In this document: piece after piece, positions 12,661 through 57,891 of the stretch
Numbering within the stretch: position 1 is the stretch's first letter
Layout: every line of letters starts with the position of its first letter
Assembly: GCA_035546615.1 (NCBI GenBank)
Contig: DASZWM010000006.1
Location: 144,417 to 208,416 of the forward strand
Length of the DNA stretch: 64,000 bases
Direction: 5' to 3'
From: Minisyncoccota bacterium
GTDB lineage: Bacteria > Patescibacteriota > Minisyncoccia > Phycocordibacterales > SBAW01
Notes under the pieces: model-generated
What the model was told of the DNA's origin: nothing
The model's input: only the letters and a program-made list of their open reading frames with translations
The model's database searches: none
Translations under genes and position numbers: made by a program

Positions 12661-12663
12661 TAC

Positions 12664-14420: not shown

Positions 14421-14672
14421 ATGACGGAACGTCGCAGGAACATCCCGAAGGGCAAGACGAGAGTCATCGGCTGCGATCTCTTCGATCGCAGCGATTACTT
14501 GGTCGGCGACTATCACAAGCGTGAAGACGCTTTCAAGATCGCCGACGAGAAGAACCGCGCTCGCACCGGCTCGATGGATGATGTCTATTACGTCTACGAC
14601 GACACCGGCAAGTACATTCGCGGCGAGGAAGCCGTGAAGGAGCTGACCGGCGGCCTCGGCATCAGTCCGTAG
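14421..14672 (+). CDS. Hypothetical small protein (83 aa)
   Basis: Strong Shine-Dalgarno (AAGGAGGTG). Native GC content. Followed by a terminator. Confidence 0.6.
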   Translation: MTERRRNIPKGKTRVIGCDLFDRSDYLVGDYHKREDAFKIADEKNRARTGSMDDVYYVYDDTGKYIRGEEAVKELTGGLGISP

Positions 14673-14701
14673 GTCGAAGATGGGGCGATAGCGTAGCATT
14701 A

Positions 14702-27165: not shown

Positions 27166-27197
27166 ATGGGCCCATTTTAGCGCAAATACAGGCTATT

Positions 27198-27812
27198 TTA
27201 AAGGCTCTTGATGTCCTTAACTATCTCCGGAAACTGCTCTTGATTCTGGTGTTTCCTGTCTTCGAATATTCGAACGGTAGCGTTGGGAAGCAAGTTACGA
27301 TACTTCTCAAGCTCGTCGATATTTACGATAGGATCATCTTTACTGTGGTATAGGAATATCTTTCCGGCTTGTTTTTCGAATTTCTCAAGAGAGCTGGGCA
27401 GGACGAATTCGCTTACGACCCTCTGAGTCTCTCCTTTTCCGCGCATCTCAAATGGAGCTGCGACTAGAAATACTCCATTTATCTTTTTTGGGAACTCCTC
27501 TTCGGACAAGTATCTCGCCAAGAATATGCCTCCAAGCGAATGGCCTACCAATATAACTCCATGTTCTATGAAAGGAATGAATCTTTCGAACCATATCTTC
27601 CACTCCGGATATCGGGCATTTTCCTTATTGGGCATGCCGGGATATATAACCTCGTATTCATCGCCAAGGCTCTGAGGAAGCCTGCTTTTCCAGTCCCCAC
27701 CGCCTTTGAACTTATCGATATAAATCGGCTTAGTCTTGAGATTGTTAAGAAAATCCTCGTAAGTTGGAAAAGCAGAACTGCCACCATGTATGACTACAAC
27801 TTGTTTTTTCAT
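27198..27812 (-). CDS. Alpha/beta-fold serine hydrolase (YdeN/RBBP9-like)
   Basis: GHSLGG nucleophile elbow with downstream Asp/His. AT-rich gene. Confidence 0.65.
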   Translation of the reverse strand: MKKQVVVIHGGSSAFPTYEDFLNNLKTKPIYIDKFKGGGDWKSRLPQSLGDEYEVIYPGMPNKENARYPEWKIWFERFIPFIEHGVILVGHSLGGIFLARYLSEEEFPKKINGVFLVAAPFEMRGKGETQRVVSEFVLPSSLEKFEKQAGKIFLYHSKDDPIVNIDELEKYRNLLPNATVRIFEDRKHQNQEQFPEIVKDIKSL

Positions 27813-29074
27813 TATAGTATCTTATTAGCTGCGTCTAATCCTGTTGCTAAGGCTGCTTCGACAGTGGCTGCCTCTCTACCTTGATATAACGCTTCGCCTG
27901 CGAAAAATATCTTGTTATCTATTGGCTCCAAAAGTTCCGTTTTTGCTGCCGCGGTAGACGGCTTTGCGTAACTATAAGCGCCTTTTGCATAGGGGTCAGC
28001 AGACCAATTTATCACGCGAAAGTGCTTAAGCTCGCTTTGCAGCATTTCTTTCGAAACTTTCAAGATGGTTGCAAGCGTATCAAGAGAGCGACTTACCACT
28101 ATTTCGTCGCTTAACCCTTCGAATTCCTTAACCTTAGGGCCCGCAAGCCAGCCGGTAAGCATTGGAATCTCTTCCGGGTACTGCGTCCACCATGCCCCGA
28201 ACTCCTCGTTAGTAAGCAGCAATATCATCTTGCTCAGATCATGTTCATTCGCCTGTGCCCACCAGCGAGATTTGAACTTCAAGAGCACTTTTATTACGCC
28301 GCCAAATCCGATGTTTTGTGCTGCCTGGATCTTTTCCGGCTGCTCCGGCGTAAAGGAAATATTTGGCAAAATCGAAGTCGGCACGGTTACAAGGACTTTC
28401 TGGGCCTCAAATATTTTTCCATCAGAGCACGTTATTTTTATAGTGTCGGTCGATGTATCTATTCCCTGTACTACAGTATGCAACTGTATCTCTACTCCAA
28501 GTCTTTTGCACTCATTTTGTAAAAACTTCACAAGCGCTCCATACCCCTCCTTCAATTTTGCCTGCTCTCCCATGCCTTCGCTCATCCACTCGTCGCGCAG
28601 CATGTACATGCTTACTTCCGCCGGGTCGGCTGCGTCGTACCCTTCAGCCATCCGCGTTACCGCATTGCGTAGACCTTCGTATTTTTCTTCCAAAAAATGC
28701 GTATCCAGGAATTTGGCAAGCGGCATATCTTCCTCAAGGACTTTTAACTTCTCCTGCAGTGCGTCCATATCGGGAACGATAAAGGGAGCCTGCGAAAGTT
28801 CGCCGTTGCGGGCATTCCAAATTTCTCCATCGCGCACTAATACCGTTAGCCCAGCGTCTTGTGCGAGAGCCCTGGTAACAGGAGTAGCTCCGTGTATAAA
28901 CTCTGCACCGGCTTCTGCAGGAAAGCCGAATTCATCGGCAGGTAAAGTGTAAATGCGCCCTCCGACGCGATCGCGCGCTTCCAGAATAGTCACTTTCTTT
29001 CCGGCCTTCGCGAGCTCTCGCGCAGCCATAAGTCCCGCAGCTCCGGCGCCTACAATAATTACCCCAGTATCCAT
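27812..29074 (-). CDS. Flavin-containing amine oxidase / FAD-dependent oxidoreductase
   Basis: N-terminal GAGAAG Rossmann motif and amine-oxidase-like body. AT-rich gene. Confidence 0.7.
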   Translation of the reverse strand: MDTGVIIVGAGAAGLMAARELAKAGKKVTILEARDRVGGRIYTLPADEFGFPAEAGAEFIHGATPVTRALAQDAGLTVLVRDGEIWNARNGELSQAPFIVPDMDALQEKLKVLEEDMPLAKFLDTHFLEEKYEGLRNAVTRMAEGYDAADPAEVSMYMLRDEWMSEGMGEQAKLKEGYGALVKFLQNECKRLGVEIQLHTVVQGIDTSTDTIKITCSDGKIFEAQKVLVTVPTSILPNISFTPEQPEKIQAAQNIGFGGVIKVLLKFKSRWWAQANEHDLSKMILLLTNEEFGAWWTQYPEEIPMLTGWLAGPKVKEFEGLSDEIVVSRSLDTLATILKVSKEMLQSELKHFRVINWSADPYAKGAYSYAKPSTAAAKTELLEPIDNKIFFAGEALYQGREAATVEAALATGLDAANKIL

Positions 29075-29105
29075 GTTCTAGATAAGTTTGAAAAAACTTA
29101 GGACT

Positions 29106-29480
29106 CTAGATTTTTTTAACAGTAAAGTAAGAACTAGCGACAGTCTTCTCACCAATGAGAATTTCTACATCGTAGCGACCTTCTTTCTCAACGGGGAACC
29201 CTTGAAGTCTATGTATAAATTGATGACGAAAGTTTTTTGGTTCAAAAGTTGTTGAATCCCTTCCAATTTCTTTTCCTTCACAGGAGATCCTAAATGATTC
29301 CATATATTGCTTATTTTGTTGGTCAGCCGGTATTTCAATATTGACAACAATGCACATACTGCTATGTATTGCAGGAAAGCCAGGTACATTTATAGAATCA
29401 AACACACCTCTGATATTTAATTTTTTGTCGTTCTCAGAAATTTCGGCCGAATCACACAAAAGAATGAAATTTGGTTTCAT
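29106..29480 (-). CDS. Hypothetical protein (124 aa)
   Basis: AT-rich. No recognisable motif. Confidence 0.45.
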   Translation of the reverse strand: MKPNFILLCDSAEISENDKKLNIRGVFDSINVPGFPAIHSSMCIVVNIEIPADQQNKQYMESFRISCEGKEIGRDSTTFEPKNFRHQFIHRLQGFPVEKEGRYDVEILIGEKTVASSYFTVKKI

Positions 29481-29519
29481 AAAAACTATTTTAGCATGTA
29501 AAAAAATATTTGTCTAATT

Positions 29520-30965
29520 TCATTTTATTTCCTTTTCTGTGGAACTATTCTCAGTCTCAAAAGAATTAGAAGAAGAAGGCAAGGTAAAGTCTTTCGTAGT
29601 TTGCGTTACCCCTAACTCATTGTAATCAATCTCTGGATTTGAGTTAATACGTTGATCAATCCGGTTCATATCGCGTGGGAAGGCGGACGCTTCTTTAACG
29701 TTCGCGAGGTTAAGCATTTTCATCGTGAGGCGCTCGAGCCCGGTTGAGCAGCCGCCGTGCGGCGGCATACCGTACTTGAAGGCCTGGAGATAGAAGGCGA
29801 ACTTCGCTGTGTCCATACCGCGCAATTTCATCTTCTCGATCAATTCATCGTAGTTATGGATGCGCTGCGAGCCGGAGTTGATCTCGAGCCCGCGGAAGAG
29901 GAGGTCGAAGCTACGGCTAAACTCCGGGTCCTCCGGGTCGGGGTAGGTGTAGAACGCGCGCTTCTTGGTCGGGAAGTGCGTAATAAAGATAAAGTCGGAG
30001 CTGAGCTTCTCCTTGGCGTATTGGCAGATCTGGCGCTCGTGCTCGGGCTCAAGGTCGAGCTCTCCTACTGCCTTGCCGCCGAACTCTTTCTCGATTATTT
30101 CTTGTGCTTCGCGCAAGGTGAAGGTTGGGAATGGTCCCTGCGGCAGCAGCGCCGGCTCCACCTTGAAGCGCTTCAGCGCGTCGATATGCTTCTCAGCAAC
30201 AGTCGTCGATATAGTTCGTATCACCTTCTCGAGCATCGCCATCACGTCCTTGTGCGAATCGACGAAGCCCATTTCGAACTCAAGCTGCGTCAGCTCGGCC
30301 AAATGCCGCGTCGTTGCGCTTTTCTCGGCGCGGAAGGTCTTGGCTACGGTCATCGAGCGCTCGAACGGCCCGACCATTATCTGCTTATAGAGCTGGCCGC
30401 TGGTCGCCAAGTACGCCTGCTTGCCGTAGTAGTCTTCTATCTTGAATACCGCCGCGCCTCCTTCGGCGTCGCCGCCCACCAGGACCGGCGCTTGGAATTC
30501 GGTAAAGCCTTCATCGCGCAATGCGTTCCTGAACGCGTTGACGATGGTTGCCTGCACGGTAAAGATGTCGCGCGTGCGCTCGATGCGCAGCGTGAGCGGC
30601 AGATTGTCGAAATGCGTGTCGATATTGAGCTCCGCGTCCATCGCAAACGGCAGCGAGTGCGCTTCCGAAAGCACTTTTATGCCCGTAATTTCAAGCTCGA
30701 TGTTGCCGTTGGGGACGTCGCGGCGCATCTTCTCCGGCCGCTCGTTCACCTTGCCCTCGATGCGCACGACCCACTCTTGCTTTAGCTTCTGCGCCACCTC
30801 AAGCACCTCCGGCTTGCCGAATACGACGCCCTGTACCTTGCCGGAGCGGTCGCGGAAGTCGAAAAAGGCCATCTTGCCCTGGTTGCGCGCGACATCCACC
30901 CAGCCGCCGATGGATACGGTTTCTCCGATATGCTTGCTCAAATCTCCAATTAAAGTCCGTTCCAT
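29520..30965 (-). CDS. aspS: Aspartyl (or asparaginyl) tRNA synthetase, class IIb, with unusual AT-rich C-terminal extension
   Basis: N-terminal OB fold. Motif 2 FRAE, motif 3 GGCSTGLERL. AspRS type 2 versus AsnRS cannot be resolved by eye. The last ~50 codons are Ser/Asn/Glu-rich and encoded by AT-rich DNA. Start trimmed to MERTLIG. Confidence 0.75.
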   Translation of the reverse strand: MERTLIGDLSKHIGETVSIGGWVDVARNQGKMAFFDFRDRSGKVQGVVFGKPEVLEVAQKLKQEWVVRIEGKVNERPEKMRRDVPNGNIELEITGIKVLSEAHSLPFAMDAELNIDTHFDNLPLTLRIERTRDIFTVQATIVNAFRNALRDEGFTEFQAPVLVGGDAEGGAAVFKIEDYYGKQAYLATSGQLYKQIMVGPFERSMTVAKTFRAEKSATTRHLAELTQLEFEMGFVDSHKDVMAMLEKVIRTISTTVAEKHIDALKRFKVEPALLPQGPFPTFTLREAQEIIEKEFGGKAVGELDLEPEHERQICQYAKEKLSSDFIFITHFPTKKRAFYTYPDPEDPEFSRSFDLLFRGLEINSGSQRIHNYDELIEKMKLRGMDTAKFAFYLQAFKYGMPPHGGCSTGLERLTMKMLNLANVKEASAFPRDMNRIDQRINSNPEIDYNELGVTQTTKDFTLPSSSNSFETENSSTEKEIK

Positions 30966-31002
30966 ATGTATTTTGTGTTTTTGCAAAAAGCTAAAATGAT
31001 TT

Positions 31003-31944
31003 TTATAGAGCCACGCCGACTTTTTGCCTGACATCCGCCATCTTAGCCGATGCTATCGCGCGGGCCTTTTCGGCTCCTTCGCGCAGGATCTGCTTAACCT
31101 GCTCGTCGGTTATATTTGCGCGCCTTTCCCGCATAGGGTCAATCGCAGCCTCTATGTCTTCCACAAGCGCGTCTTTCAGAACTTTGTAGCTGCCCTTATT
31201 CGCCGCATACAAGCTTTCAAGCTCGCTTTCGCTCTTAAAGAGCTTATGGATCGCGTACACATGCTCGGGGCGCTCGCCAGAGGAGTCGGTCACGATGCTC
31301 ATGACCGCTTTCGATATCTCGTCTTTGGTGCCGAAGAGTGGAATGGTGTTCTTATAGCTCTTGCTCATTTTCTGACCGTCGGTGCCGGGCACAGTGGCAA
31401 CCTCTTCGGAGATCTTTTCTTGCGGTTCTTTGAACGTTTGTCCGTATGCATTATTGAACTTGCTCGCCGCCTCGCGAGCGTATTCAACATGCTGGCGCTG
31501 GTCGGCCCCTACCGGCACGATATCGGTATCATACAGAAGGATATCGGCAGCCATAAGCATTGGGTACGTAAAAAGGCCCGCGTTCGCCTCGAGTCCTTTC
31601 GCTACCTTGTCCTTATATGAGTGCGCCTGCATCAAAAATGGCACGGTAACCAAACAATCAAATATCCACGCCAGTTCTGTGTGCTCCTGCACATCTGACT
31701 GCTTGAATATGATAGCCTTGCTCGGATCTACTCCTGCAGCGACATAGTTCTTTACCACATCAATAATGTTCTGCTTCAGCACCGCCGGGTCTTTAAGGCT
31801 CGTGAGCGCGTGGTAATCAACGACCATGAGGAAGCTTTCGTACTGCTCGTATTCGCTCACAAAGGGCTTGAGCGCGCCGAAATAGTTGCCGATATGCAAG
31901 GTGCCGGAAGGCTGAAGGCCCGTCAAAAGCCGCTTTTTTGCCAT
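31003..31944 (-). CDS. trpS: Tryptophanyl-tRNA synthetase
   Basis: HIGN and KMSKS motifs. Class Ic TrpRS-sized (313 aa). Confidence 0.85.
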   Translation of the reverse strand: MAKKRLLTGLQPSGTLHIGNYFGALKPFVSEYEQYESFLMVVDYHALTSLKDPAVLKQNIIDVVKNYVAAGVDPSKAIIFKQSDVQEHTELAWIFDCLVTVPFLMQAHSYKDKVAKGLEANAGLFTYPMLMAADILLYDTDIVPVGADQRQHVEYAREAASKFNNAYGQTFKEPQEKISEEVATVPGTDGQKMSKSYKNTIPLFGTKDEISKAVMSIVTDSSGERPEHVYAIHKLFKSESELESLYAANKGSYKVLKDALVEDIEAAIDPMRERRANITDEQVKQILREGAEKARAIASAKMADVRQKVGVAL

Positions 31945-31995
31945 ATGGCACTTAGTGTATCAGAAAATCCTTCCCTACCAAGGCTATTTCTATAC

Positions 31996-32024
31996 TTGAC
32001 TTTCTACTTAAATAGGAGTATAAT
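31996..32024 (+). promoter_or_regulatory. Sigma70 promoter TTGACT-17-TATAAT, ATG 5 nt downstream (leaderless-type)
   Basis: Consensus hexamers. -10 ends at 32024, ATG at 32029. Confidence 0.5.
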
Positions 32025-32028
32025 TAAC

Positions 32029-32427
32029 ATGAAACTGAACATTGGAGTACTAAAGATGCCAAAGTCAGAGAAGCCCAACGGTCTTACCGTCCTCCAGCGT
32101 TTTGTGACGGAGGAGATTTTCAAGGTCAGCGCAGAGATCGCCAAGAGATCACAGCAGACGGGAGTGAAGTCCCACACAGCTGCCTTTACTGCCGTCTTTG
32201 GGAAGCGTCTTGCGGTGCTTGATGCAATCTTGCTGGTGGTGAACCACCACCAGCACCGCCACAAAGGCTTATCGGAGAAGACTCGCCTCAATCTGATTCA
32301 GGCGGCAGAGACTTCTTTGTGGTCCTCCTCTCTTTCTGCAGACGGCGAGGAGGTGTCGCGCTATGTACCTCCCATGATGGAAGAAGACAAGATGCGCGAG
32401 TTGTTCCGTCTGATCCGTGCTGCCTAA
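32029..32427 (+). CDS. Hypothetical protein (132 aa)
   Basis: ATG immediately after the promoter. No recognisable motif. Confidence 0.45.
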   Translation: MKLNIGVLKMPKSEKPNGLTVLQRFVTEEIFKVSAEIAKRSQQTGVKSHTAAFTAVFGKRLAVLDAILLVVNHHQHRHKGLSEKTRLNLIQAAETSLWSSSLSADGEEVSRYVPPMMEEDKMRELFRLIRAA

Positions 32428-32618
32428 CCCGCCCGCAGAAGCCGTTCCGGCTCTGTCGGGCGGTTTCTGTTTATATGACAACTAGAGTCATAGATAATTT
32501 AGTTGTCGTCACAACTAAATTTCTGCCGACCCCGCCTCAGCTATTTTGCTTGCTGGCAAAATATGCTTCCGGCCCGTGTAAGTGCAGCAAAAAGTAAAGC
32601 AGTTTACTTTTTTCAGCC

Positions 32619-33701
32619 TTACACGCCTTCTTCCTTGAGTTTCTCTATCAGTCCTTTAGCTGTTTTGGAGAGTTTTTGTGGCAGGATTATTTTAACGCGC
32701 ACTATTAAATCGCCGCGCTTGCCCCGGCCCATAACTACGCCGCGGCCCTTTACCGAAATAGTCTCGCCATGCGTGATGCCGGGTGGAATAGAGAGGGCCT
32801 CTTCCCCGTCGAGTGTTTGAATTTTATATTCTGCACCCAAAAGCGCGTCGGAAAGCTTTACCGAAAGGTCGGTCATGATATGCGCGCCTTCTTTCTTAAA
32901 GCGCGGATCGGGGCTGACGTGCACTTTTACGTACAGGTCGCCTGAGGCTCCGCCCGCCACCGCCTCCCCCGAGCCGGTAAGGCGTATCATCTCGCCGCCC
33001 TCAATGCCCGCGGGCACGACTATCTCTATCTCTTCCTGCTTCTTGTAGACGCCTTCGCCGCGGCAGGTGTGGCATTTTTCCTTCGGAACTTTGCCGGTGC
33101 CGTGGCATTGCGGACAGACCCGCGTCATCGAGATGGAACCGAAGAACGAGTTGTTGGTCTCGTGGATCTTGCCCGCGCCGTTGCACTTGTTGCAGGTCTC
33201 GAGCTTGGTGCCCGGCTCGGCGCCGGAGCCGCCGCAGGTCTCGCATTGCGCGGTCTTGGCAAGAAGCACGCGGCGGGTCGTGCCGAATACGGACTCCTTA
33301 AAGGAGATCTCTAAATCTATGGAAATGTCGCGGCCGCGGCGCTGGCGCGTGCCGCCGCCCTGAAAGAGGTCGCTGAATACGTCGCTAAAGTCGAAGCCTC
33401 CCATGCCGCCGTTGAATGCGTCCTGGAATTGCGAGAAGTCGAAGCCCTGTCCGCCGCCGAAACCGCCCTGGTTGGGATTGCCGCCGCTGAACGTGCGGCC
33501 GTAGGAATCGTACTCGGCGCGCTTCTTTTCGTCGGAAAGTATTGAGTATGCTTCGGAAACCTCTTTGAATTTGTCGGAATCACCGGAGCTTTTGTCCGGG
33601 TGGAATTTATGCGCGAGCTTGTGGAACGCTTTCTTTATCTCATCCTTGGTGGCCTTTTTATCGACTCCCAGGATCTCGTAATAGTCGCGGTTCCCTGCCA
33701 T
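32619..33701 (-). CDS. dnaJ: Chaperone DnaJ
   Basis: J-domain with HPD, G/F region, four CxxCxGxG zinc-finger repeats. Confidence 0.9.
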   Translation of the reverse strand: MAGNRDYYEILGVDKKATKDEIKKAFHKLAHKFHPDKSSGDSDKFKEVSEAYSILSDEKKRAEYDSYGRTFSGGNPNQGGFGGGQGFDFSQFQDAFNGGMGGFDFSDVFSDLFQGGGTRQRRGRDISIDLEISFKESVFGTTRRVLLAKTAQCETCGGSGAEPGTKLETCNKCNGAGKIHETNNSFFGSISMTRVCPQCHGTGKVPKEKCHTCRGEGVYKKQEEIEIVVPAGIEGGEMIRLTGSGEAVAGGASGDLYVKVHVSPDPRFKKEGAHIMTDLSVKLSDALLGAEYKIQTLDGEEALSIPPGITHGETISVKGRGVVMGRGKRGDLIVRVKIILPQKLSKTAKGLIEKLKEEGV

Positions 33702-49488: not shown

Positions 49489-50157
49489 CTACAGCCAGTC
49501 GATGGGCTTCTCGCCATGCTCTTGTAAATACGCGTTCGCTTTTGAAAAGGGCTTTGAGCCGAAGAAGCCGTTCGCTGCGGAAAACGGCGACGGATGCGCC
49601 GATTCAATGACCAAATGCTTGCTGCGCTCGATGGAGGTACCCTTCTGCCGCGCGTAATTTCCCCAGAGAATAAAAACAAGATGCTCGCGCTCGCTTGAGA
49701 GCGCTTGTATCGCCGCGTCGGTAAACTGCTCCCAACCCTTCCCTTGATGCGAGCCGGCCAAGCCTCCGCGCACGGTGAGCGTTGCATTAAGGAGCAGCAC
49801 GCCTTGCTTAGCCCACCGGCTCAGGTCGCCGCTCGTATGCACTAAGGGTTTGCCGAGATCGCTTTCTATTTCCTTAAAAATATTCTGGAGGGAGGGGGGC
49901 GGGCGCACCCCTTCCTCTACCGCAAAAGAAAGGCCATTAGCCTGCTTCGCACCATGATACGGGTCTTGCCCGAGTATGACAACCTTCACTTCATTGAACG
50001 GCGTCAGCTCGAACGCGCGGAATATGTTCTTGGGCGGAGGATAAATAGTTCCGCTTACATATTCCTTCTTTACAAAGGCAGTAAGCTCTTCAAAATACGG
50101 CTTTCCGAACTCCGCTTCCAAATGCTTTTTCCAGGAAGCCTCGATCTTTACGTCCAT
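49489..50157 (-). CDS. ung: Uracil-DNA glycosylase (family 1)
   Basis: GQDPYH water-activating motif and C-terminal HPSPLS motif. Start trimmed to MDVKIE. Confidence 0.85.
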   Translation of the reverse strand: MDVKIEASWKKHLEAEFGKPYFEELTAFVKKEYVSGTIYPPPKNIFRAFELTPFNEVKVVILGQDPYHGAKQANGLSFAVEEGVRPPPSLQNIFKEIESDLGKPLVHTSGDLSRWAKQGVLLLNATLTVRGGLAGSHQGKGWEQFTDAAIQALSSEREHLVFILWGNYARQKGTSIERSKHLVIESAHPSPFSAANGFFGSKPFSKANAYLQEHGEKPIDWL

Positions 50158-50219
50158 GCCGCCAGTATACAAAATCGACCGCAAAAATTCGCGGTCGATT
50201 CAGCATTCTGGTTTTCCTT

Positions 50220-50540
50220 TTACCAACAGGCGGCATGCCCCGACCAGTTCACGTTGCACGTAAGCCTGTTCTTGGACGGGTCCTTGAGAAAGGCCACCGC
50301 CTCCCGGGCGTTGGTATCGCTCCAGGCCTTCTGGCCGCTGCAGTCCAGCTGCGTCGAAATAGAAGTAGCGGTGCCGGATACCCCGGTTACCGTGCAGGCC
50401 GCCTCATGTTGAGACTCAAGAAGCCTGATTGCCGGAGACTGCGAAAAGAACGCCGCCGCGATGCACAGGAGTATTCCTGCCAATATCCAAGGAACAGTTC
50501 TTTCCCGCCGGACTTGGGGATCTACGAACGAAGGGGACAT
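50220..50540 (-). CDS. Hypothetical Cys-rich secreted/membrane protein (106 aa)
   Basis: One TM/signal segment. Six Cys. Confidence 0.4.
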   Translation of the reverse strand: MSPSFVDPQVRRERTVPWILAGILLCIAAAFFSQSPAIRLLESQHEAACTVTGVSGTATSISTQLDCSGQKAWSDTNAREAVAFLKDPSKNRLTCNVNWSGHAACW

Positions 50541-50571
50541 GTGGCACCTTTCTTTGGTTGGTCCAGTCCTA

Positions 50572-50877
50572 CTATATGATAGCTCCCTCTTTTTTCAAAA
50601 GAGCGCGCTTCGCTTTTTCTCCGCCGCGGTTGTAGTTCCCTATTGTGCCGTCGGCACGGATGACGCGGTGGCACGGAATTTTGGGGTCGAAATTCTTCGA
50701 CATCCAGTAGCCCACCGCGCGCGCGGCTCCTGCGTTGCCGGCCTTCTTGGCGACCATAGCATAGGTCATGACCTGACCCTTTGGAATTTTGGCGACTACG
50801 GCGCGTACCTTCTTCGCGAACGGGGAATACTGCACGTCGTCTTTAGAAGAGCTGCGGTGTGGTTTGTTCTTCTTCAT
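50572..50877 (-). CDS. ogt: Stand-alone methylated-DNA-protein-cysteine methyltransferase domain
   Basis: Active-site PCHRV and HTH; only 101 aa, with no N-terminal domain. Overlaps the upstream nuclease gene by 35 nt. Confidence 0.75.
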   Translation of the reverse strand: MKKNKPHRSSSKDDVQYSPFAKKVRAVVAKIPKGQVMTYAMVAKKAGNAGAARAVGYWMSKNFDPKIPCHRVIRADGTIGNYNRGGEKAKRALLKKEGAII

Positions 50878-51700
50878 GGCCTTTTTCTTTTTTTGCTAAT
50901 TTCTTTGGTTCCGGCACAGCGGGTTTTTCCTTTTCCGCATTCTGCGCCGCCCATAAGGCCTTTCCTGCTGATTCGCGGTAGCGGCAGTAATCGCAGTCCG
51001 CTCCCGCCGGAGGTATCTCGCCGCTGTCCAGACACTTCTTGAGCGCGAGCAGCGTCCCTTCTACCCAGTCAGTTGACCCTTTGTACGGCACGAGCGTCAG
51101 CTCGAAGTCGAGCTTGCCGTCGAAGGCCTCCCGGTCCTTGGTCGCGTTGGCATAGAACCAGTAGCCCATATCGGACACCTTGAAGCCGTTCTGGCGCAGG
51201 AGCCATTGATATACCTCAAGCTGGCGCTTGTAGCCCTTGTGCCACTCCTCGTCGAGGCTCTCGATGCGGCCGTCCTTGCTGGTAGCCTTGTAGTCGATGA
51301 CGATGAGCTCGCCGTCGGGGGTTACCCAGATGTCATCAACGCCGCCGCGCACAAGCAACCCCGTTTCCTTATGGAGCCACTGCACCCCGTGCCTGAGGGC
51401 GTCGCGCCATTCGTCCATTTTTTCGTGCGCGAGCGGGACGGCGTCGAGGCCGTAGGCTTTCGCGAGCGGATGCTGAGTGCCCTTCGCGCGATGCGCGTCC
51501 AGCTCCTTCTTAAGGAGCGCGTCGACCGCCGAGTTGAGGTTGAACGGGAATCCCGGCGGCCTGGCGACGCCGAGCTTGTTGTCCAGATAGAAGCACCGCT
51601 GGCAATCCAAAAAGAGATCTATTTTGGAGCGCGACAGCGTCCACTTGGGGCCGCCGTAGTTGTAGTCGGGCTTGCGATTGGGCTTATAGTATTGGCTCAC
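50843..51700 (-). CDS. PD-(D/E)XK nuclease with predicted Fe-S cluster (Cas4/AddB-like)
   Basis: DDIW...IDYK (D-ExK), QxxxY (RQLEVY), N-terminal CxxC and C-terminal CxxC. Confidence 0.65.
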   Translation of the reverse strand: MSQYYKPNRKPDYNYGGPKWTLSRSKIDLFLDCQRCFYLDNKLGVARPPGFPFNLNSAVDALLKKELDAHRAKGTQHPLAKAYGLDAVPLAHEKMDEWRDALRHGVQWLHKETGLLVRGGVDDIWVTPDGELIVIDYKATSKDGRIESLDEEWHKGYKRQLEVYQWLLRQNGFKVSDMGYWFYANATKDREAFDGKLDFELTLVPYKGSTDWVEGTLLALKKCLDSGEIPPAGADCDYCRYRESAGKALWAAQNAEKEKPAVPEPKKLAKKEKGHEEEQTTPQLF

Positions 51701-51728
51701 TGAGCCATTCTACACCATGGGCCCGAGG

Positions 51729-52214
51729 TCAGTCTAAGGTCGTCCCGTATTTTGCGCGTATCGAGTTTTCCACGCGCAGGAACAGCGTGAATATCGCGAG
51801 CGCGAGCACGGTCGCAACGAGGGCGAGAAGGTAGAACCCGAATCCGCATGCCATGCCGACGCCCGCGGCGACCCAGATGCCTGTAGCGGTCGTCAGTTCA
51901 ACCGGATGGTCGCCCCGCAGCAGGCTCAATCCCGAGCCGATGAAGCCGATGCCGATGATGACCGAGCCGGCCAACTGGAGCGGGTTGACGCCCGGAAAGA
52001 GCGCGCCGAGCTGGAGGCTTGCAAGCGTGCCGAGTATCGCGAACAGGCATGAGCCGAGGCTCACCAGCGCGTAGGTGCGCATCCCCGCGTGCTTGCCCGC
52101 AACCGAGCGTTCAAGCCCCAGCATCGCGCCGAGGAAAGCGGAAATGACAAGCGCCCAGACGAAATCAATTTCGGTTACGGGAAGCGGCCATGCGTGAATG
52201 AGCGATGCGGTCAT
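51729..52214 (-). CDS. mgtC: MgtC/SapB family membrane protein
   Basis: GLERSVAGKHAGMRT matches the MgtC motif. Four TM segments. Confidence 0.75.
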   Translation of the reverse strand: MTASLIHAWPLPVTEIDFVWALVISAFLGAMLGLERSVAGKHAGMRTYALVSLGSCLFAILGTLASLQLGALFPGVNPLQLAGSVIIGIGFIGSGLSLLRGDHPVELTTATGIWVAAGVGMACGFGFYLLALVATVLALAIFTLFLRVENSIRAKYGTTLD

Positions 52215-53024: not shown

Positions 53025-53843
53025 TCATATACCGACTCCCGGGACGCACAATGCGCCCACTTCCTCAAGCACCTGGTCCGCGCGCGGGCCGGTTATGCCC
53101 GCCCGCGCAAGGACGTCGGTATTGTCGGGAAGCCCCTTGCACAGGACCATGCGCTCGCTCAACAGAGCCGTTTTTTCGTGAGCGCTTAGGGTGGTAAGCG
53201 CGGTTACCGGATAGAGCCCGGCCTTTTCTATCCGGTCATGGAGGTTATTCCCCTGGGGATAATCCCAGCTGAGGAGCTCGAGGCCCGCGCAGGCGGCGTA
53301 CTGCTCGGCCTTGGAGGTGAATTTGGTGTTGGTAACGACCAGGCCTCTGCCCTTTCCGATATCGTCTATGCGCGCCTTCACGTACAGCACCGTCTTGAGG
53401 TCGGTCTTGAATCCGGCCGCGTTGTGGAACTTCGCTTCCGCATACATGGTCTCGCCGCCCTTCGTCATGACCACGTCCACCTCGTGGTCGACGCAGTGCC
53501 CCTGTATCATCTGGTCCACTTTCGTCTCCCAGCCCTCGACGCGGTACAGCTCCGCTATGAAAGATTCGAACGGGAATCCGGACGGGCCGAAATCGAGCAC
53601 CGCCCGCTTCAGGCTGTAGCGCGCGGCCACGGCATGGCGATGCTCGCGCAGGCGCGCGAACGCGCGGGAATATATTTCCTGCGTAGAGATGCCGCTCCAG
53701 AGCTCTTTTTTGACGCTCCCGAGTATCTGCGAGGCGGCGTCCTCCTTGGCGCCCGCGCGGGTAAGCGACGCTATCAATTTGCGCGGATCAAACGGCTCCT
53801 GGGTCCCGTCCGCCTTAACGACTAGTATTTCTTCTTTCGGCAT
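53025..53843 (-). CDS. ATP-cone domain protein fused to Mrr-like (PD-(D/E)XK) restriction-endonuclease domain
   Basis: N-terminal ATP-cone (ILVVKADGTQEPFDPRKL...). Core DHEVDVV...YAEAK resembles the Mrr catalytic domain. Confidence 0.6.
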   Translation of the reverse strand: MPKEEILVVKADGTQEPFDPRKLIASLTRAGAKEDAASQILGSVKKELWSGISTQEIYSRAFARLREHRHAVAARYSLKRAVLDFGPSGFPFESFIAELYRVEGWETKVDQMIQGHCVDHEVDVVMTKGGETMYAEAKFHNAAGFKTDLKTVLYVKARIDDIGKGRGLVVTNTKFTSKAEQYAACAGLELLSWDYPQGNNLHDRIEKAGLYPVTALTTLSAHEKTALLSERMVLCKGLPDNTDVLARAGITGPRADQVLEEVGALCVPGVGI

Positions 53844-53845
53844 AG

Positions 53846-54940
53846 TTATGCGGTAAGTGTAGCATTTGTTATGACCCCGCCTCCAAGGCAGCGCTCCCCG
53901 CGATACAGCACCAGCGACTGGCCCTGCGGCATGTAATGGGGTTCGTCGATGGTTACTTCCTTTCCGCCTTCAGCGAGCATCGCCGGCATCAGCGCCTGGC
54001 GATAGCGGTAGCGCGCCTCGCATGCGCCCTCGCCTCTTTCGCCGATCCAGTTGGCGTGCTCCAGGGCGACGATGGTCTTGCGCATGCCCTGCGGGAATTT
54101 CTCGGCCGAGACGGTTATCGTATTCTTTTTCGCGTCCTTGCCGATGACGTAGCGCGCCTCTTCGTGAGGAACGTCGTGATACAGCGAGAAACCGTGCCGC
54201 TGGCCGAGCGTATACAGCGCCGCTCCGCGATGCTCGCCGATGACCGCGCCGTGTTCGTCAAGCACGCTGCCCGGCTCCGGCGCCGCTTCGCGCTCCAGCA
54301 TGTCTTCTATTGATATGTCGCCGAGGAAACATAACCCCTGACTGTCGGGGCGCCTGGCATTAGGGAGGCCGAACTTCTTCGCGAGCGAGCGCACAGCCGG
54401 CTTTTCCATGGAACCCACGGGAAACAGCGTGCGACGCAATGCCTCCTGCCGCACCGCCCATAAAAAATAGCTTTGGTCCTTGTTCTTATCGGCTCCCATA
54501 TAGAGAAGCCCTTCGCGAGCCTGCGCGTAGTGGCCGGTCGCCACAACATCGGCGCCGCGGGACATGCAGAAGTCGTAAAAGGCGCCGAACTTTATCTTCT
54601 CGTTGCACAAGGTGTCGGGGTTGGGCGTGTTCCCCTTCTTGAACTCGCCAATGGACGGAAGGAACACCTCGCGCTCGTACTCCTTCGACAGGTCCACCTC
54701 GATGAACGGAATGTTGAGATGCGCGGCAACCCGCATGGCTTCTATGCGGTCGCGCGCGGCCGGGCACGGGTAGCCGGGGATCTGTATCTTTATGAAAACG
54801 CCCGTCACATCCCGGCCTTCGCGCTTGAGGAGCGCGGCGGAAACGGCGGAGTCGACTCCGCCGGAAAGGCCCACGAATACTTTCTTATTACTGGGCGGTG
54901 GTGCTTGCCGTCGTAGTAGCGGCCGTAGTAGTTGAAACAT
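53846..54940 (-). CDS. mnmA: tRNA-specific 2-thiouridylase MnmA
   Basis: PP-loop SGGVDS and MnmA catalytic Cys. N-terminal 53 nt overlap the upstream gene, so the true start may be later or non-ATG. Confidence 0.8.
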   Translation of the reverse strand: MFQLLRPLLRRQAPPPSNKKVFVGLSGGVDSAVSAALLKREGRDVTGVFIKIQIPGYPCPAARDRIEAMRVAAHLNIPFIEVDLSKEYEREVFLPSIGEFKKGNTPNPDTLCNEKIKFGAFYDFCMSRGADVVATGHYAQAREGLLYMGADKNKDQSYFLWAVRQEALRRTLFPVGSMEKPAVRSLAKKFGLPNARRPDSQGLCFLGDISIEDMLEREAAPEPGSVLDEHGAVIGEHRGAALYTLGQRHGFSLYHDVPHEEARYVIGKDAKKNTITVSAEKFPQGMRKTIVALEHANWIGERGEGACEARYRYRQALMPAMLAEGGKEVTIDEPHYMPQGQSLVLYRGERCLGGGVITNATLTA

Positions 54941-56490: not shown

Positions 56491-57891
56491 TCAGCGGGCC
56501 GAAGAGGCGCGTATGCCGGTCGGCAGGTTCGCCGGAGCTTCCGAGCGCTTGGAAGCCACGCGCTCAAGCCCCGGCGGCGCGGTCTTGGAGTTCGGGAAAT
56601 GCCATAGGGTAGCGAGCTCTTCGGTGTTCATGAATACCGGCACCTGGTCGTACGGCACGTAAAAATATGCGCGGTTCTTGTAGAACTCATAGGTCTGCTT
56701 CTTTATGTAGCGCTTGCGGATATCGTGAAAGTCCTGCCACGGGTAGTCGAATATCGCCATCCCGCGGGTCGGGTTTATCTGGTTGTAGTCGTTTGAGCGC
56801 ACCGGGTCAAACAAGCGCACGAGCGAGCCGATATTGACCGGATTGAACCGCCCTTTCTTGGAAATATACACGCCGCGCATGCCGCACTCGAACGTGAGCT
56901 TGCCCATGGCTTTCTCTATCGCCTCCACCCGGCGGCGCTCCGACTCGGTCAAAAGCGTGAGCCCGCGCGCCTGCGCCTGCGCCTGCTTTTCGGGGTCCTC
57001 GCCGACCAGCTTCTTGGCGCGCTCCCCCGCCACTTTGACCATCTTGTCTATCTCGGCCTTGCCGCCGTCCTTGTAGTGATCGTGCTTGTAGTCGTAGAAC
57101 CCGAACCATTCGTCTTTCTTGCGGGCCTTCATGATTATCTGGAGCCATAAGTACTCGCCTTCGCCCACATGCGAGAAATATTCCAGGATATTCGTTATCG
57201 GGTCCACCTGAATCTCGGGCGTATCCGGATTCTTGTCGAGCGCGTAATCCACGTAGGTCTTTATCGGCACCGCGCCGGCCTGCGCCTTGGAGTATTCGGT
57301 GCCCCACAGGTCGTAGTCGTCCAGGTTGAAGTTGACCTTTGCGGCGTAATCTTCCGCAAGCGTTATTTTCGCCTCGGGGTACTGGCCGTACAGGCGCGCT
57401 TCGATGACGTTGCGCCAGCTCTGGCGCGTGTGGATGTAATAGCTCACGCGGCCCTCGTTGGATGCGATCTCCAGCGCCCATACTGGCCGGAACTGGCCCT
57501 TCCAGATGCGCGCGATGAAGGTGCTTTCGCCGCCGGAGTTCCACAGGGTGGTCAGGAAGAGCTCCATCGAGAGCGGGGATTTTTCCACTTCGGGCGGCAG
57601 CTGCACTTCAAGCAGGATATGCTCCTGCGAGAACCAGAACTGGAAGCGGATGTATTCGATCCAGCTCGTCCAGAAGAAGCTCACGATGAAGAGGGGCACC
57701 CACACCGGCGAAATGGCGGCGGTCGCAAGCGCCGCCGCCTTGACCGCGGCCGGGTCCACCGACAGCGCGGCTACGAGGAAGATGACGAACGCGACGGGCG
57801 CCACGACCAGAGCCTCGATATGGTAGCCCGCCAATCCGATCTTCAGGCTGTCGTCATTGCCGAACTTATGCGACCACTCGTGGAACAGCAT
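56491..57891 (-). CDS. Hypothetical membrane protein (466 aa), unknown family
   Basis: N-terminal TM segments followed by a large soluble domain. No motif recognised. Confidence 0.5.
   Translation of the reverse strand: MLFHEWSHKFGNDDSLKIGLAGYHIEALVVAPVAFVIFLVAALSVDPAAVKAAALATAAISPVWVPLFIVSFFWTSWIEYIRFQFWFSQEHILLEVQLPPEVEKSPLSMELFLTTLWNSGGESTFIARIWKGQFRPVWALEIASNEGRVSYYIHTRQSWRNVIEARLYGQYPEAKITLAEDYAAKVNFNLDDYDLWGTEYSKAQAGAVPIKTYVDYALDKNPDTPEIQVDPITNILEYFSHVGEGEYLWLQIIMKARKKDEWFGFYDYKHDHYKDGGKAEIDKMVKVAGERAKKLVGEDPEKQAQAQARGLTLLTESERRRVEAIEKAMGKLTFECGMRGVYISKKGRFNPVNIGSLVRLFDPVRSNDYNQINPTRGMAIFDYPWQDFHDIRKRYIKKQTYEFYKNRAYFYVPYDQVPVFMNTEELATLWHFPNSKTAPPGLERVASKRSEAPANLPTGIRASSAR

What the first reader, a model, noticed from the sequence alone, without database searches (positions are those of the whole stretch)
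53025..53843. ATP-cone domain fused to an Mrr-like PD-(D/E)XK nuclease
N-terminal ~90 aa match the ATP-cone (the nucleotide-sensing module of NrdR and ribonucleotide reductases). The core DHEVDVV…YAEAK matches the Mrr catalytic motif. A nucleotide-pool-sensing module coupled to a DNA endonuclease suggests a regulated nuclease (defence or stress-triggered). It is embedded on the same strand as mnmA and the MgtC/membrane genes, which is odd for a housekeeping role.
Basis: partly seen in the sequence, partly recalled or inferred. Interest (0 to 1): 0.5.

Follow-up and report, generated by a model that had tools for sequence, protein, structure and literature searches.

The report
ATP-cone-gated nuclease, core Patescibacteria gene
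The gene really does encode an ATP/dATP-sensing domain fused to an intact Mrr-type DNA-cutting enzyme, but it is an ancient, uncharacterised housekeeping or stress protein inherited vertically with core genes, not a phage-defence nuclease.

Summary
ORF 53025-53843 (-) encodes a 272-aa protein with an ATP-cone (Pfam E=2.6e-11), an Mrr_cat PD-(D/E)XK core (E=2.4e-9; E93, D123, E136 and K138 invariant), and a C-terminal HhH-like domain homologous to PDB 1Y88/AF1548 (E=5e-28).

The ATP-cone keeps the NrdR inner-site residues and the ATP/dATP gatekeeper Tyr, so adenine-nucleotide gating of an active nuclease is well supported.

The defence reading is not supported:
- There are no relatives in 50,697 phage records or 2.9 million viral contigs, and only 2 of 72,556 plasmids carry one.
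- PADLOC finds no known system.
- The window is core chromosome.
- When loci are sampled through mnmA, 27 of 28 in this clade carry the gene just downstream.
- Its divergence tracks MnmA, LeuRS and AlaRS.

The same three-domain protein occurs in Archaea, Bacteroidota and Chlamydiota. AF1548 itself is full-length with an ATP-cone; the crystal construct was truncated. In Bacteroidota and Chlamydiota the gene is usually followed directly by a beta-CASP nuclease, and in four loci also by thymidine-phosphorylase-like and PRPP-synthetase-like genes, often among stress genes.

Best reading: a nucleotide-gated nuclease for nucleic-acid turnover, salvage or repair. The family is catalogued but biochemically untested.

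The parts
53025..53843 (-). Complete gene for the 272-aa three-domain protein (ATP-cone, Mrr_cat nuclease, AF1548-like C-terminal domain)
   Evidence: ORF. Homologues of 262-283 aa with the same architecture. No paralogue in the window.
53604..53825 (-). ATP-cone domain (aa 7-80), the predicted adenine-nucleotide sensor
   Evidence: Pfam E=2.6e-11. hhalign against E. coli NrdR gives 96% probability and E=4.9e-9, mapping K10, E16, P17, F18, K22, L23, T54, I57 and Y76 onto NrdR K53, E59, P60, F61, K65, L66, S105, I108 and Y131. The model superposes on NrdR ATP-cones at 1.8-2.0 A.
53565..53597 (-). Linker motif L/F-G-P-S-G-F-P-F-E (aa 83-93) joining the sensor to catalytic helix 1; it ends in the catalytic Glu93
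   Evidence: This is the most conserved stretch of the family: 68% mean identity, against 39% for the ATP-cone and 44.5% for the nuclease core. G86, P87, G89, F92 and E93 are invariant. The model has low pLDDT here. Its role as a coupling element is inferred.
53268..53579 (-). Mrr_cat / PD-(D/E)XK nuclease core (aa 89-192) with E93, D123, E136-x-K138 and N172
   Evidence: Pfam E=2.4e-9. 1Y88 by sequence E=5e-28. Foldseek 1Y88 TM 0.80, followed by Can2, NucS and MspJI nuclease domains. Catalytic residues 47/47.
53046..53258 (-). AF1548-like C-terminal helical (HhH-like) domain (aa ~196-266), the presumed DNA-backbone-binding module
   Evidence: The phmmer alignment to 1Y88 runs to aa 262. PF22357 is detected in the 65%-identical homologue P0115 and in archaeal members, which also give weak HHH_5 hits. 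hmmscan did not detect it in the query itself at E<=1.
53846..54940 (-). mnmA (tRNA 2-thiouridylase), the immediately upstream gene; probably co-transcribed with the target
   Evidence: Pfam E=9e-65. A 2-nt spacer separates it from the target ATG. It sits at -1 or -2 in 52 Patescibacteria loci, and 27 of 28 loci in the mnmA-anchored sample carry the target.
49489..52214 (-). Conserved downstream syntenic neighbours (context, not shown to be functionally linked): MgtC (51729-52214), Cas4-like PDDEXK_1 nuclease (50843-51700), MGMT DNA_binding_1 protein (50572-50877), UDG (49489-50184)
   Evidence: Pfam. Positions +1 to +6 are conserved across Patescibacteria loci.

Best explanation
The gene encodes an allosterically gated nuclease that belongs to the core genome of this Patescibacteria (Paceibacteria) lineage.

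Mechanism:
(1) The N-terminal ATP-cone binds adenine nucleotides (ATP versus dATP, possibly also reporting ADP/AMP), as it does in NrdR and ribonucleotide reductases.
(2) Occupancy changes the oligomeric or conformational state. The change is passed through the very conserved GPSGFPFE linker into the first catalytic helix (E93) of the PD-(D/E)XK core (D123, E136, K138), switching cleavage on or off.
(3) The C-terminal HhH-like domain holds the nucleic acid non-specifically. The substrate is most likely DNA.

Physiological role I commit to: regulated nucleic-acid turnover or salvage, coupled to the cell's adenylate/dATP pool under nucleotide or energy limitation. It is not restriction of foreign DNA.

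Status of each step:
- Shown: the domain architecture, intact catalytic and nucleotide-binding residues, vertical inheritance, absence from mobile elements, and the operon partners in other phyla.
- Inferred: nucleotide binding itself, the direction of regulation, the substrate and the physiological role.
For: Architecture and residues. NrdR inner-site residues are taken from bioRxiv 10.1101/2025.03.28.645925. All map to conserved family positions (K10 47/47, F18 44/47, K22 44/47, T54 44/47, Y76 46/47). The ATP-cone is as conserved as the other domains, so it is not decaying.

Core-gene status: synteny LeuRS, sigma70, DUF8128, YceG, MnmA, target, PDDEXK_1, MGMT-like, UDG, AlaRS. The target's identity correlates with that of MnmA (0.85), LeuRS (0.89) and AlaRS (0.85), with the same median of about 48-49%. 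In the mnmA-anchored sample 27 of 28 loci carry it. The window holds DnaB, several aminoacyl-tRNA synthetases (aaRS), MurG, FtsW, MraY and DnaK/J.

Not mobile or defence.

Turnover/stress link: in 15 of 17 loci outside Patescibacteria a beta-CASP/RMMBL nuclease lies close by; in 11 of the 13 Bacteroidota loci mapped it is the next gene on the same strand. In Cyclobacterium, L081, Pontibacter and Criblamydia the gene heads an operon, with overlapping or closely spaced genes, of beta-CASP, thymidine-phosphorylase-family and ribose-phosphate-pyrophosphokinase genes. Depending on the locus, these loci also carry Usp or Hsp20 genes, a P-type ATPase, or (Criblamydia only) phosphoketolase, glycogen phosphorylase and acetate kinase. 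The MBL/Prs/TP trio is microoxia-induced in Bradyrhizobium (PMC6515984). A Usp-domain fusion protein lies next to the Geoglobus copy. CPR bacteria (the candidate phyla radiation, i.e. Patescibacteria) cannot synthesise nucleotides (abstract of bioRxiv 10.64898/2026.07.13.738296), so regulated nucleic-acid breakdown is plausible housekeeping for them.
Against: - No biochemical data exist for any family member.
- The beta-CASP/TP/Prs partners are absent from the window and from all Patescibacteria loci examined, so the salvage link is transferred across phyla.
- In Patescibacteria the nearest conserved neighbours are a tRNA-modification gene and DNA-repair genes, which fits a repair role equally well.
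- Archaeal contexts are heterogeneous.
- The substrate (DNA or RNA) and the sign of regulation are unknown.
- Conserved adjacency in tiny syntenic genomes may reflect inertia rather than function.
Confidence: 0.45

Rival explanations
1. DNA repair or recombination nuclease. The protein would be a structure- or lesion-specific endonuclease (Hjc/NucS-like), licensed by dNTP/ATP status and working with the downstream Cas4-like PDDEXK_1 nuclease, MGMT-like protein and UDG.
For: The PDDEXK_1, MGMT DNA_binding_1 and UDG genes lie at +1 to +6 in many Patescibacteria loci (PDDEXK_1 in 37 of 52, UDG in 20 of 52). Fold neighbours include NucS/EndoMS (2vld, 5gkj). Archaeal members give weak Pfam Hjc hits, and JGI labels some members 'Holliday junction resolvase'. 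HhH-like C-terminal domains are typical of repair proteins. One distant member carries a histone-H1-like Lys-rich tail, although that hit is below Pfam's cut-off.
Against: The repair neighbours are confined to Patescibacteria, and the identity correlation with PDDEXK_1 is weak (0.30). Geoglobus has a separate bona fide Hjc three genes away. Hjc hits are below Pfam's cut-off, and the query itself gives none. Bacteroidota and Chlamydiota contexts are stress or metabolic rather than repair.
Confidence: 0.27
2. Anti-phage or anti-plasmid defence. The protein would be a Type IV-like or abortive-infection nuclease, triggered when infection perturbs the dATP/ATP pool.
For: The Mrr_cat core is shared with Type IV restriction enzymes. 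There are weak PADLOC hits to the nuclease domains of ZorD (4e-5) and a CARF-PDDEXK protein (0.02). Structural neighbours Can2, Card1 and Cdn1 are ligand-activated defence nucleases.
Against: Nothing was found in 50,697 phage records or in IMG/VR, and only 2 of 72,556 plasmids carry a relative. No defence or methyltransferase neighbours were found. The gene holds a fixed position in a housekeeping block (27 of 28 loci) and has aaRS-like divergence. The architecture is uniform across Archaea and Bacteria, without the domain shuffling typical of defence genes. There is no Mrr_N modified-DNA reader.
Confidence: 0.07
3. RNA-directed enzyme. The protein would be an ATP-gated endoribonuclease acting on tRNA, rRNA or mRNA, for example ribosome or tRNA turnover in dormancy.
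For: The gene is tightly coupled to mnmA (tRNA thiolation) in Patescibacteria. Its partner elsewhere is a beta-CASP protein with the RMMBL 'RNA specificity' domain. Some PD-(D/E)XK relatives in the fold list are reported to cleave RNA as well as DNA (from memory; Can2 and Card1 appear).
Against: The HhH-like C-terminal domain and the Mrr/Hjc-type core are usually DNA-directed. No RNA-binding domain was detected. Beta-CASP enzymes also include DNases (general knowledge).
Confidence: 0.13
4. Non-catalytic regulator. The protein would be an NrdR-like nucleotide-sensing DNA-binding protein whose nuclease fold only binds DNA.
For: It has the same logic as NrdR: an ATP-cone plus a DNA-binding module.
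Against: E93, E121, D123, E136, K138 and N172 are invariant in 47 of 47 homologues. That is the signature of an active PD-(D/E)XK site rather than a degenerate one.
Confidence: 0.04

Closest known systems
AF1548 of Archaeoglobus fulgidus (PDB 1Y88; Pfam PF22357 AF1548-like_C; NCBI name 'ATP cone domain-containing protein / restriction endonuclease')
   Same: True homologue. Sequence E=5e-28 over aa 95-262 and TM 0.80. The D/E/K triad is the same. The full-length A. fulgidus protein (P0271, 265 aa) has the identical ATP-cone, Mrr_cat and AF1548_C architecture.
   Different: About 33% identity. The crystallised chain lacks the ATP-cone, so no structure shows how sensor and nuclease are coupled. 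C235 and C266 of the bacterial proteins are often absent in archaea. No member has been characterised biochemically.
NrdR (transcriptional repressor of ribonucleotide reductase genes)
   Same: An ATP-cone fused to a DNA-binding module. The inner-site residues and the Tyr gatekeeper are conserved. NrdR works by ATP/dATP-dependent oligomer switching, which is the mechanism I infer here.
   Different: NrdR's output is a Zn-ribbon that binds NrdR boxes, with no catalysis, and its ATP-cone is C-terminal to that module. Here the cone is N-terminal and the output is a nuclease. The query scores far below the NCBIfam NrdR cut-off (15 bits against 125).
N-terminal ATP-cone of ribonucleotide reductases (NrdA, NrdD, NrdJ)
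   Same: An N-terminal allosteric on/off switch on an enzyme of nucleotide economy, driven by competitive ATP/dATP binding (PMC4390871). The profile hits the NrdD cone 8p23.
   Different: The catalytic partner is a radical reductase rather than a nuclease.
E. coli Mrr (Type IV restriction endonuclease)
   Same: The Mrr_cat catalytic core. Mrr activity is controlled by its oligomeric state, through tetramer dissociation (title of PMC5435990, listed).
   Different: Mrr has an N-terminal modified-DNA-binding domain and is laterally acquired (abstract of PMC3152355). This protein has an ATP-cone, is vertically inherited, and shows no sign of reading DNA modification.
Can2, Card1 and Cdn1 (CARF-PD-(D/E)XK CRISPR ancillary nucleases)
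   Same: A small-molecule sensor domain fused to a PD-(D/E)XK nuclease. These are the closest non-family structural neighbours (8bao, 7bdv, 9u49, 6xl1).
   Different: Their sensor is CARF, which binds cyclic oligoadenylates, and they sit in type III CRISPR loci. There is no CARF domain and no CRISPR context here.
NucS/EndoMS and archaeal Hjc
   Same: Similar minimal PD-(D/E)XK fold (2vld and 5gkj; weak Hjc Pfam hits in archaeal members).
   Different: There is no NucS N-terminal domain. Hjc scores are below the cut-off, and a separate Hjc coexists in Geoglobus.

Membership tests
ATP-cone domain (PF03477) | Profile score above Pfam's gathering cut-off | tested here: met
   44.4 bits against 25.8, E=2.6e-11
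ATP-cone domain (PF03477) | Beta-hairpin lid plus helical cone fold | tested here: met
   The AF2 model has strands at 7-9 and 15-17 followed by helices. It superposes on E. coli NrdR cones at rmsd 1.8-2.0 A over 71-77 residues.
ATP-cone domain (PF03477) | Conserved nucleotide-contacting residues (lid Lys and Glu, helix-1 Lys, hydrophobic adenine pocket, helix-4 Tyr) | tested here: met
   hhalign maps K10, E16, P17, F18, K22, L23, T54, I57 and Y76 onto NrdR K53, E59, P60, F61, K65, L66, S105, I108 and Y131. Conservation is 38-47 of 47 at the polar and aromatic contacts (K10, E16, F18, K22, T54, Y76); the pocket positions V8, L23 and I57 stay hydrophobic, and P17 is variable (19 of 47).
ATP-cone domain (PF03477) | Actual binding of ATP or dATP, and an allosteric effect | not testable with these tools
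   Needs ITC or DSF and activity assays
Mrr_cat / PD-(D/E)XK nuclease (PF04471) | Profile score above the gathering cut-off | tested here: met
   37.8 bits against 21, E=2.4e-9
Mrr_cat / PD-(D/E)XK nuclease (PF04471) | Catalytic E...D...(D/E)xK residues intact | tested here: met
   E93, D123, E136 and K138 are invariant in 47 of 47
Mrr_cat / PD-(D/E)XK nuclease (PF04471) | Mg2+-dependent phosphodiester cleavage | not testable with these tools
   Needs a biochemical assay
AF1548-like three-domain family (1Y88 / PF22357) | Homology to AF1548 through both the nuclease and the C-terminal domain | tested here: met
   phmmer E=5e-28 over aa 95-262. Foldseek E=1.7e-14, TM 0.80.
AF1548-like three-domain family (1Y88 / PF22357) | PF22357 profile hit in the query itself | tested here: not met
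   Not reported at E<=1 for the query. It is found in the 65%-identical P0115 (27.2 bits against 23.9) and in archaeal members, so the model is biased towards archaeal sequences. Homology is established through 1Y88.
Type IV restriction enzyme of the Mrr type | N-terminal modified-DNA recognition domain (Mrr_N winged helix) | tested here: not met
   The N-terminus is an ATP-cone, with no Mrr_N hit
Type IV restriction enzyme of the Mrr type | Sporadic, laterally transferred, island-associated distribution | tested here: not met
   27 of 28 mnmA-anchored loci carry the gene. Divergence tracks the aaRS genes. It is absent from phages and viral contigs.
Type IV restriction enzyme of the Mrr type | Modification-dependent cleavage | not testable with these tools
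   Needs a biochemical assay
Known anti-phage defence systems (PADLOC-DB v2) | Match to a system protein plus the cognate partner genes nearby | tested here: not met
   Only weak domain-level hits (ZorD 4e-5, CARF_PDDEXK 0.02). Among the neighbours, only a stand-alone Cas4-like fold.
Archaeal Holliday junction resolvase Hjc (PF01870) | Hjc profile above the cut-off; a ~130-140 aa single-domain protein | tested here: not met
   No hit for the query. Archaeal members score 18 bits against 21.1. A separate 132-aa Hjc lies next to the Geoglobus copy.
NrdR (TIGR00244) | Zn-ribbon plus ATP-cone, with a score above the NCBIfam cut-off | tested here: not met
   15.2 bits against 124.65, with only the cone region aligning

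The most novel reading that the evidence does not exclude
This family would be a third functional class of ATP-cone proteins, after ribonucleotide reductases and NrdR. It would act as a pan-prokaryotic gate on the catabolic/salvage side of nucleotide economy. A nuclease reads the ATP/dATP (energy and dNTP) state and opens nucleic-acid breakdown when pools fall. The products would feed a beta-CASP exonuclease, a nucleotide/nucleoside phosphorylase and a PRPP-synthetase route in Bacteroidota and Chlamydiota. In nucleotide-auxotrophic Patescibacteria it would be an essential, fixed core function.
Probability: 0.25. Interest if true: 0.7.

Novelty: new member of a known kind. Interest (0 to 1): 0.5.

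Why it matters
ATP-cones are understood only as switches on ribonucleotide reductases and on their repressor NrdR. A conserved ATP-cone wired to an intact nuclease would show the same sensor controlling nucleic-acid breakdown. This protein is present in Archaea, Bacteroidota and Chlamydiota, and is fixed in a Patescibacteria clade that cannot make its own nucleotides. It would also assign a role to a 20-year-old structural-genomics orphan (1Y88). It is a cheap, testable candidate for how ultra-small symbionts and hypoxia-stressed bacteria meter nucleic-acid recycling or repair. In practical terms, automated labels such as 'restriction endonuclease' for this family should not be counted as defence genes.

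Tried and rejected
(1) Defence system. PADLOC on the protein and on ten neighbour or partner proteins, the phage database, IMG/VR and plasmids were all negative or nearly so.

(2) A 4-Cys Fe-S or Zn cluster bridging the nuclease and C-terminal domains. C117, C185, C235 and C266 are invariant among close homologues. Across the family, however, only C117 and C185 hold (45 of 47 each), while C235 (37 of 47) and C266 (31 of 47) are missing in many archaeal members, and AF1548 itself lacks the fourth. A universal cluster is therefore rejected. No model coordinates were available to measure distances.

(3) Canonical Hjc or NucS. Rejected in the membership tests.

(4) AF1548 as a stand-alone nuclease showing that the ATP-cone is a later add-on. 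Rejected, because the real gene encodes a 265-aa protein with the cone.

(5) Beta-CASP, TP-family, Prs, Usp and Hsp20 partners in the window or in Patescibacteria loci. None found.

(6) Extra fused domains in longer family members as functional clues. Only a Lys-rich histone-H1-like tail below the Pfam cut-off, plus insertions.

(7) The top PDB hits of the ATP-cone profile were designed helical-repeat proteins. These are spurious, with no stretch individually significant.

(8) Alignment A2 was too diverse for the locus scan (error), so A3 was used instead.

(9) The promoter and terminator scan around the gene gave counts no higher than in shuffled sequence.

(10) Literature searches for AF1548, ATP-cone with nuclease or endonuclease, and the NCBI product name found no functional study.
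Full report

Yes. The minus-strand ORF 53025-53843 (ATG start, 272 aa) is present as described.
- Pfam reports ATP-cone at aa 7-80 (E=2.6e-11, 44.4 bits against a cut-off of 25.8) and Mrr_cat at aa 89-192 (E=2.4e-9, 37.8 bits against 21).
- The quoted motifs are C117-V-D-H-E-V-D123-V-V and Y-A-E136-A-K138.
The region from aa 95 to 262 aligns to PDB 1Y88, 'hypothetical protein AF1548', at E=5e-28.
- An AlphaFold2 model (pLDDT 84, pTM 0.72) matches 1Y88 with TM 0.80 and rmsd 2.8 A.
- Its next neighbours are the PD-(D/E)XK domains of Can2, NucS/EndoMS, MspJI and Cdn1. Its N-terminus superposes on E. coli NrdR ATP-cones at 1.8-2.0 A.

**2. Are both modules functional?**

I aligned 47 homologues at 36-63% identity and counted residues per column.
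- Nuclease site: E93, E121, D123, E136, K138 and N172 are invariant in 47 of 47. D123, E136 and K138 correspond to the D38/E51/K53 predicted for AF1548 (PMC1821046), after a 13-residue offset in the crystallised chain.
- ATP-cone: a structural study of E. coli NrdR names V51, K53, E59, P60, F61, K65, L66 and I108 as the inner adenine-nucleotide site, and Y131 as the ATP/dATP gatekeeper (bioRxiv 10.1101/2025.03.28.645925).
- A profile-sequence alignment of the family's N-terminus to NrdR (hhalign, 96% probability, E=4.9e-9) places V8, K10, E16, P17, F18, K22, L23, I57 and Y76 on those positions.
- These positions are conserved: K10 47/47, E16 38/47, F18 44/47, K22 44/47, T54 44/47, Y76 46/47.
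Its numbering agrees with every residue cited in that paper.
- The ATP-cone (39% mean identity) is as constrained as the nuclease core (44.5%) and the C-terminal domain (35%).
- The most conserved element is the linker L-G-P-S-G-F-P-F-E (68%), which ends in the catalytic E93.

An active nuclease with a working adenine-nucleotide sensor is therefore well supported. The linker's role as the coupling element is my inference.

**3. How widespread is the family?**

- The word-indexed search gave 5,614 proteins at E<=1e-3. The best 120 are all 262-283 aa with the same architecture at 64-91% identity, from Paceibacterota and other Patescibacteria.
- The exhaustive search of 50%-identity representatives gave 1,192 clusters at E<=1e-3 and 426 at E<=1e-30. 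Nearly all of the best 150 align full-length.
Besides Patescibacteria these include cultured Bacteroidota such as Cyclobacterium, Formosa, Dokdonia, Halomarinibacterium and Lacibacter.
- A search with the AF1548 fragment showed that the real A. fulgidus protein (P0271, 99% identical) is 265 aa and has ATP-cone, Mrr_cat and PF22357 'AF1548-like_C'. The same holds for Ferroglobus, Geoglobus, Korarchaeota, Bathyarchaeia and DPANN members.
- The 1Y88 chain is therefore an N-terminally truncated product, and the fusion is ancient and uniform across both prokaryotic domains.
- No paper in the searchable library describes its function.

**4. Genomic context in Patescibacteria**

- The window is core chromosome: DnaB, CysRS, GluRS, MurG, FtsW, MraY, DnaK/DnaJ, further aaRS genes, PepF, sigma-70 and LeuRS. 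No methyltransferase or defence gene is present.
- The target starts 2 nt after the mnmA stop codon.
- The order LeuRS, sigma70, DUF8128, YceG, (small membrane protein), MnmA, target, (membrane protein), (MgtC), PDDEXK_1, (MGMT-like), (UDG), AlaRS recurs in long contigs. It also recurs in about 50 Patescibacteria loci, down to 43% identity.
- Across 52 loci the target's identity to the window protein correlates with that of MnmA (Spearman 0.85), LeuRS (0.89) and AlaRS (0.85). The medians are equal at 48.5, 48.7 and 49.4%.
- Those loci were all chosen because they contain the target. To remove that bias I sampled metagenome loci through MnmA instead. Where MnmA is at least 45% identical and at least 900 nt of downstream sequence is available, 27 of 28 loci carry the target within 0-664 nt. 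At lower MnmA identity (other lineages) the count is 0 of 26.
- The one exception, L098, has a rearrangement on a short contig.

This is the signature of a fixed, vertically inherited core gene.

**5. Context elsewhere**

- Bacteroidota: in 11 of 13 loci the next gene on the same strand is a 456-469 aa Lactamase_B, Beta-Casp and RMMBL nuclease. Counting two further Bacteroidota loci and the two plasmid copies, 15 of 17 loci outside Patescibacteria encode it close by.
- Seven of those loci carry two to five copies of Usp-like paralogues (only one member was checked against Pfam). Some also carry Hsp20 or a P-type cation ATPase.
- In Cyclobacterium, L081, the Pontibacter megaplasmid and the Criblamydia plasmid the order is target, beta-CASP, thymidine-phosphorylase-family protein, ribose-phosphate pyrophosphokinase. 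The genes overlap or lie a few bases apart.
- In Criblamydia this cassette sits beside phosphoketolase, glycogen phosphorylase, acetate kinase and a P-type ATPase.
- The MBL, Prs and TP trio (bll3115-3117) is induced by microoxia in Bradyrhizobium at both RNA and protein level (PMC6515984).
- Archaeal contexts vary. Ferroglobus has CorA, target and DUF389 with overlapping genes. Geoglobus has a permease-Usp fusion upstream and a separate Hjc nearby.
- None of these partners occurs in the window or in the Patescibacteria loci examined.

**6. Tests of the defence idea**

- PADLOC gives only weak domain-level hits for the protein: ZorD nuclease domain 4e-5 and CARF_PDDEXK 0.02.
- Among the neighbours, only the stand-alone PDDEXK_1 gives a Cas4-like hit.
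- tblastn finds nothing in 50,697 phage records, the IMG/VR scan finds nothing, and only two of 72,556 plasmids carry a full-length relative.
- Taken with sections 4 and 5, a restriction or abortive-infection role is unlikely. I put it at about 0.07.

**7. Mechanism and role**

- Shown: a three-domain protein with an intact PD-(D/E)XK site, an ATP-cone that keeps the NrdR-type nucleotide site and gatekeeper Tyr, and an HhH-like C-terminal domain (weak HHH_5 hits in archaeal members).
- Inferred by analogy: in RNRs competitive ATP/dATP binding to the cone switches activity (PMC4390871), and in NrdR ATP/dATP occupancy remodels the oligomers. E. coli Mrr is activated by tetramer dissociation (PMC5435990). 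By analogy, nucleotide occupancy sets the oligomeric or conformational state, and through the GPSGFPFE linker it sets the competence of the active site.
- The direction of regulation and the substrate are unknown. I take DNA as more likely.
- For the physiological role I favour regulated nucleic-acid turnover or salvage tied to nucleotide and energy status (0.45). The grounds are the beta-CASP/phosphorylase/PRPP operon, the stress islands, and the nucleotide auxotrophy of CPR bacteria (abstract of 10.64898/2026.07.13.738296).
- A DNA-repair role comes next (0.27), supported by the PDDEXK_1, MGMT-like and UDG neighbours in Patescibacteria. An RNA-directed role follows (0.13).

**8. Comparison with known families and novelty**

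- The protein is a bona fide member of the AF1548-like 'ATP cone domain-containing protein' family, which is already catalogued (Pfam domains, NCBI product names, a 2004 structure of two of its three domains).
- It is not a member of Mrr-type Type IV enzymes (no Mrr_N domain and not mobile), Hjc, NucS, NrdR or any PADLOC system. See the membership table.
- It works like NrdR or RNR on the sensor side, and like ligand-gated PD-(D/E)XK effectors such as Can2 and Card1 on the output side.
- Novelty: a new member of a known but functionally uncharacterised kind.
- Interest is moderate (0.5). The fusion itself is not a discovery. Its fixation as a core gene, its pan-domain uniformity, the truncated-structure finding and the cross-phylum operon make a clear, testable case for a third class of ATP-cone-regulated proteins.

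Noticed in passing
PDB 1Y88 versus P0271 (A. fulgidus); no window coordinates: The crystallised 'AF1548' chain lacks about 80 N-terminal residues. The real gene product (P0271, 265 aa, 99% identical) has an ATP-cone. The structure therefore represents a truncated protein. The 2007 description of AF1548 as an 'ORFan' that is a restriction endonuclease (PMC1821046) missed the sensor domain.
   Followed up: yes
L055:10001-14616; L081; L085:1972-6597 (Pontibacter plasmid); L086:8995-13602 (Criblamydia plasmid): A four-gene cassette recurs across Bacteroidota and Chlamydiota: ATP-cone nuclease, beta-CASP/RMMBL MBL hydrolase, thymidine-phosphorylase-family protein (~500 aa with an N-terminal extension), ribose-phosphate pyrophosphokinase. 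The genes overlap or lie a few bases apart. In Criblamydia the cassette sits next to phosphoketolase, glycogen phosphorylase, acetate kinase and a P-type ATPase. The last three genes of the cassette are microoxia-induced in Bradyrhizobium (bll3115-3117, PMC6515984). I know of no description of this module.
   Followed up: partly
L057, L058, L060, L064, L070, L076, L077 (Bacteroidota loci, about 5-14 kb): Tandem arrays of two to five paralogues of ~280 aa, one of which was confirmed as a Usp-family protein, flank the ATP-cone nuclease and beta-CASP pair. Hsp20 lies nearby in four loci. From memory, this gene set resembles the mycobacterial DosR and Burkholderia lxa low-oxygen regulons (PMC3721108 lists the overlap in Usp, alpha-crystallin and cation ATPase).
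   Followed up: partly
window 51729-52214 (MgtC); L087:5958-8721 (Ferroglobus CorA-target-DUF389); P-type ATPases in L055, L081 and L086: Mg2+ and cation-transport genes (MgtC, CorA, P-type ATPases) recur next to family members in three unrelated lineages. This may point to a link between Mg2+/ATP homeostasis and this Mg2+-dependent, ATP-sensing enzyme, or it may be coincidence.
   Followed up: no
window aa positions C117, C185, C235, C266 of the ORF 53025-53843: Four cysteines are invariant among close homologues. C117 and C185 are near-universal (45 of 47 each). C235 and C266 are mostly bacterial. They could form disulfide or redox-sensitive pairs rather than a metal cluster. Distances could not be measured because no coordinates were available.
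   Followed up: partly
window 50843-51700 and 50572-50877 (-): A stand-alone Cas4-like PDDEXK_1 nuclease with Cys motifs (CQRCFY...CDYCRY) overlaps by about 35 nt a 101-aa protein that consists only of the MGMT DNA_binding_1 domain and retains the PCHR active-site motif. UDG follows. This trio is conserved in many Patescibacteria loci, and no CRISPR array or cas genes are nearby.
   Followed up: partly
window 56491-57891 (-): A 466-aa membrane-associated protein has no Pfam hit in this copy (precomputed hits for homologues show faint or weak DUF8128). It is conserved at position -3 to -5 in nearly all Patescibacteria loci. Its ORF overlaps the annotated YceG ORF by about 77 nt, so the YceG start is probably further downstream.
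   Followed up: no
window ~12000-14700 and ~27000-33000: There are two low-GC stretches (0.42-0.52 against about 0.59 elsewhere). The first holds a ClpP-like SDH-type serine protease homologue (12857-13915). The second holds an amine oxidase (27812-29074) but also aaRS genes, so it is not simply a foreign island.
   Followed up: no
L061:10001-10852 (Lacibacter sp., complete genome): tblastn matches query residues 5-266, but the longest ORF starts only at residue ~70 (228 aa). This could be a frameshift, a non-canonical start, or a decaying ATP-cone in this copy. It is also one of the two loci outside Patescibacteria that lack the beta-CASP partner.
   Followed up: no
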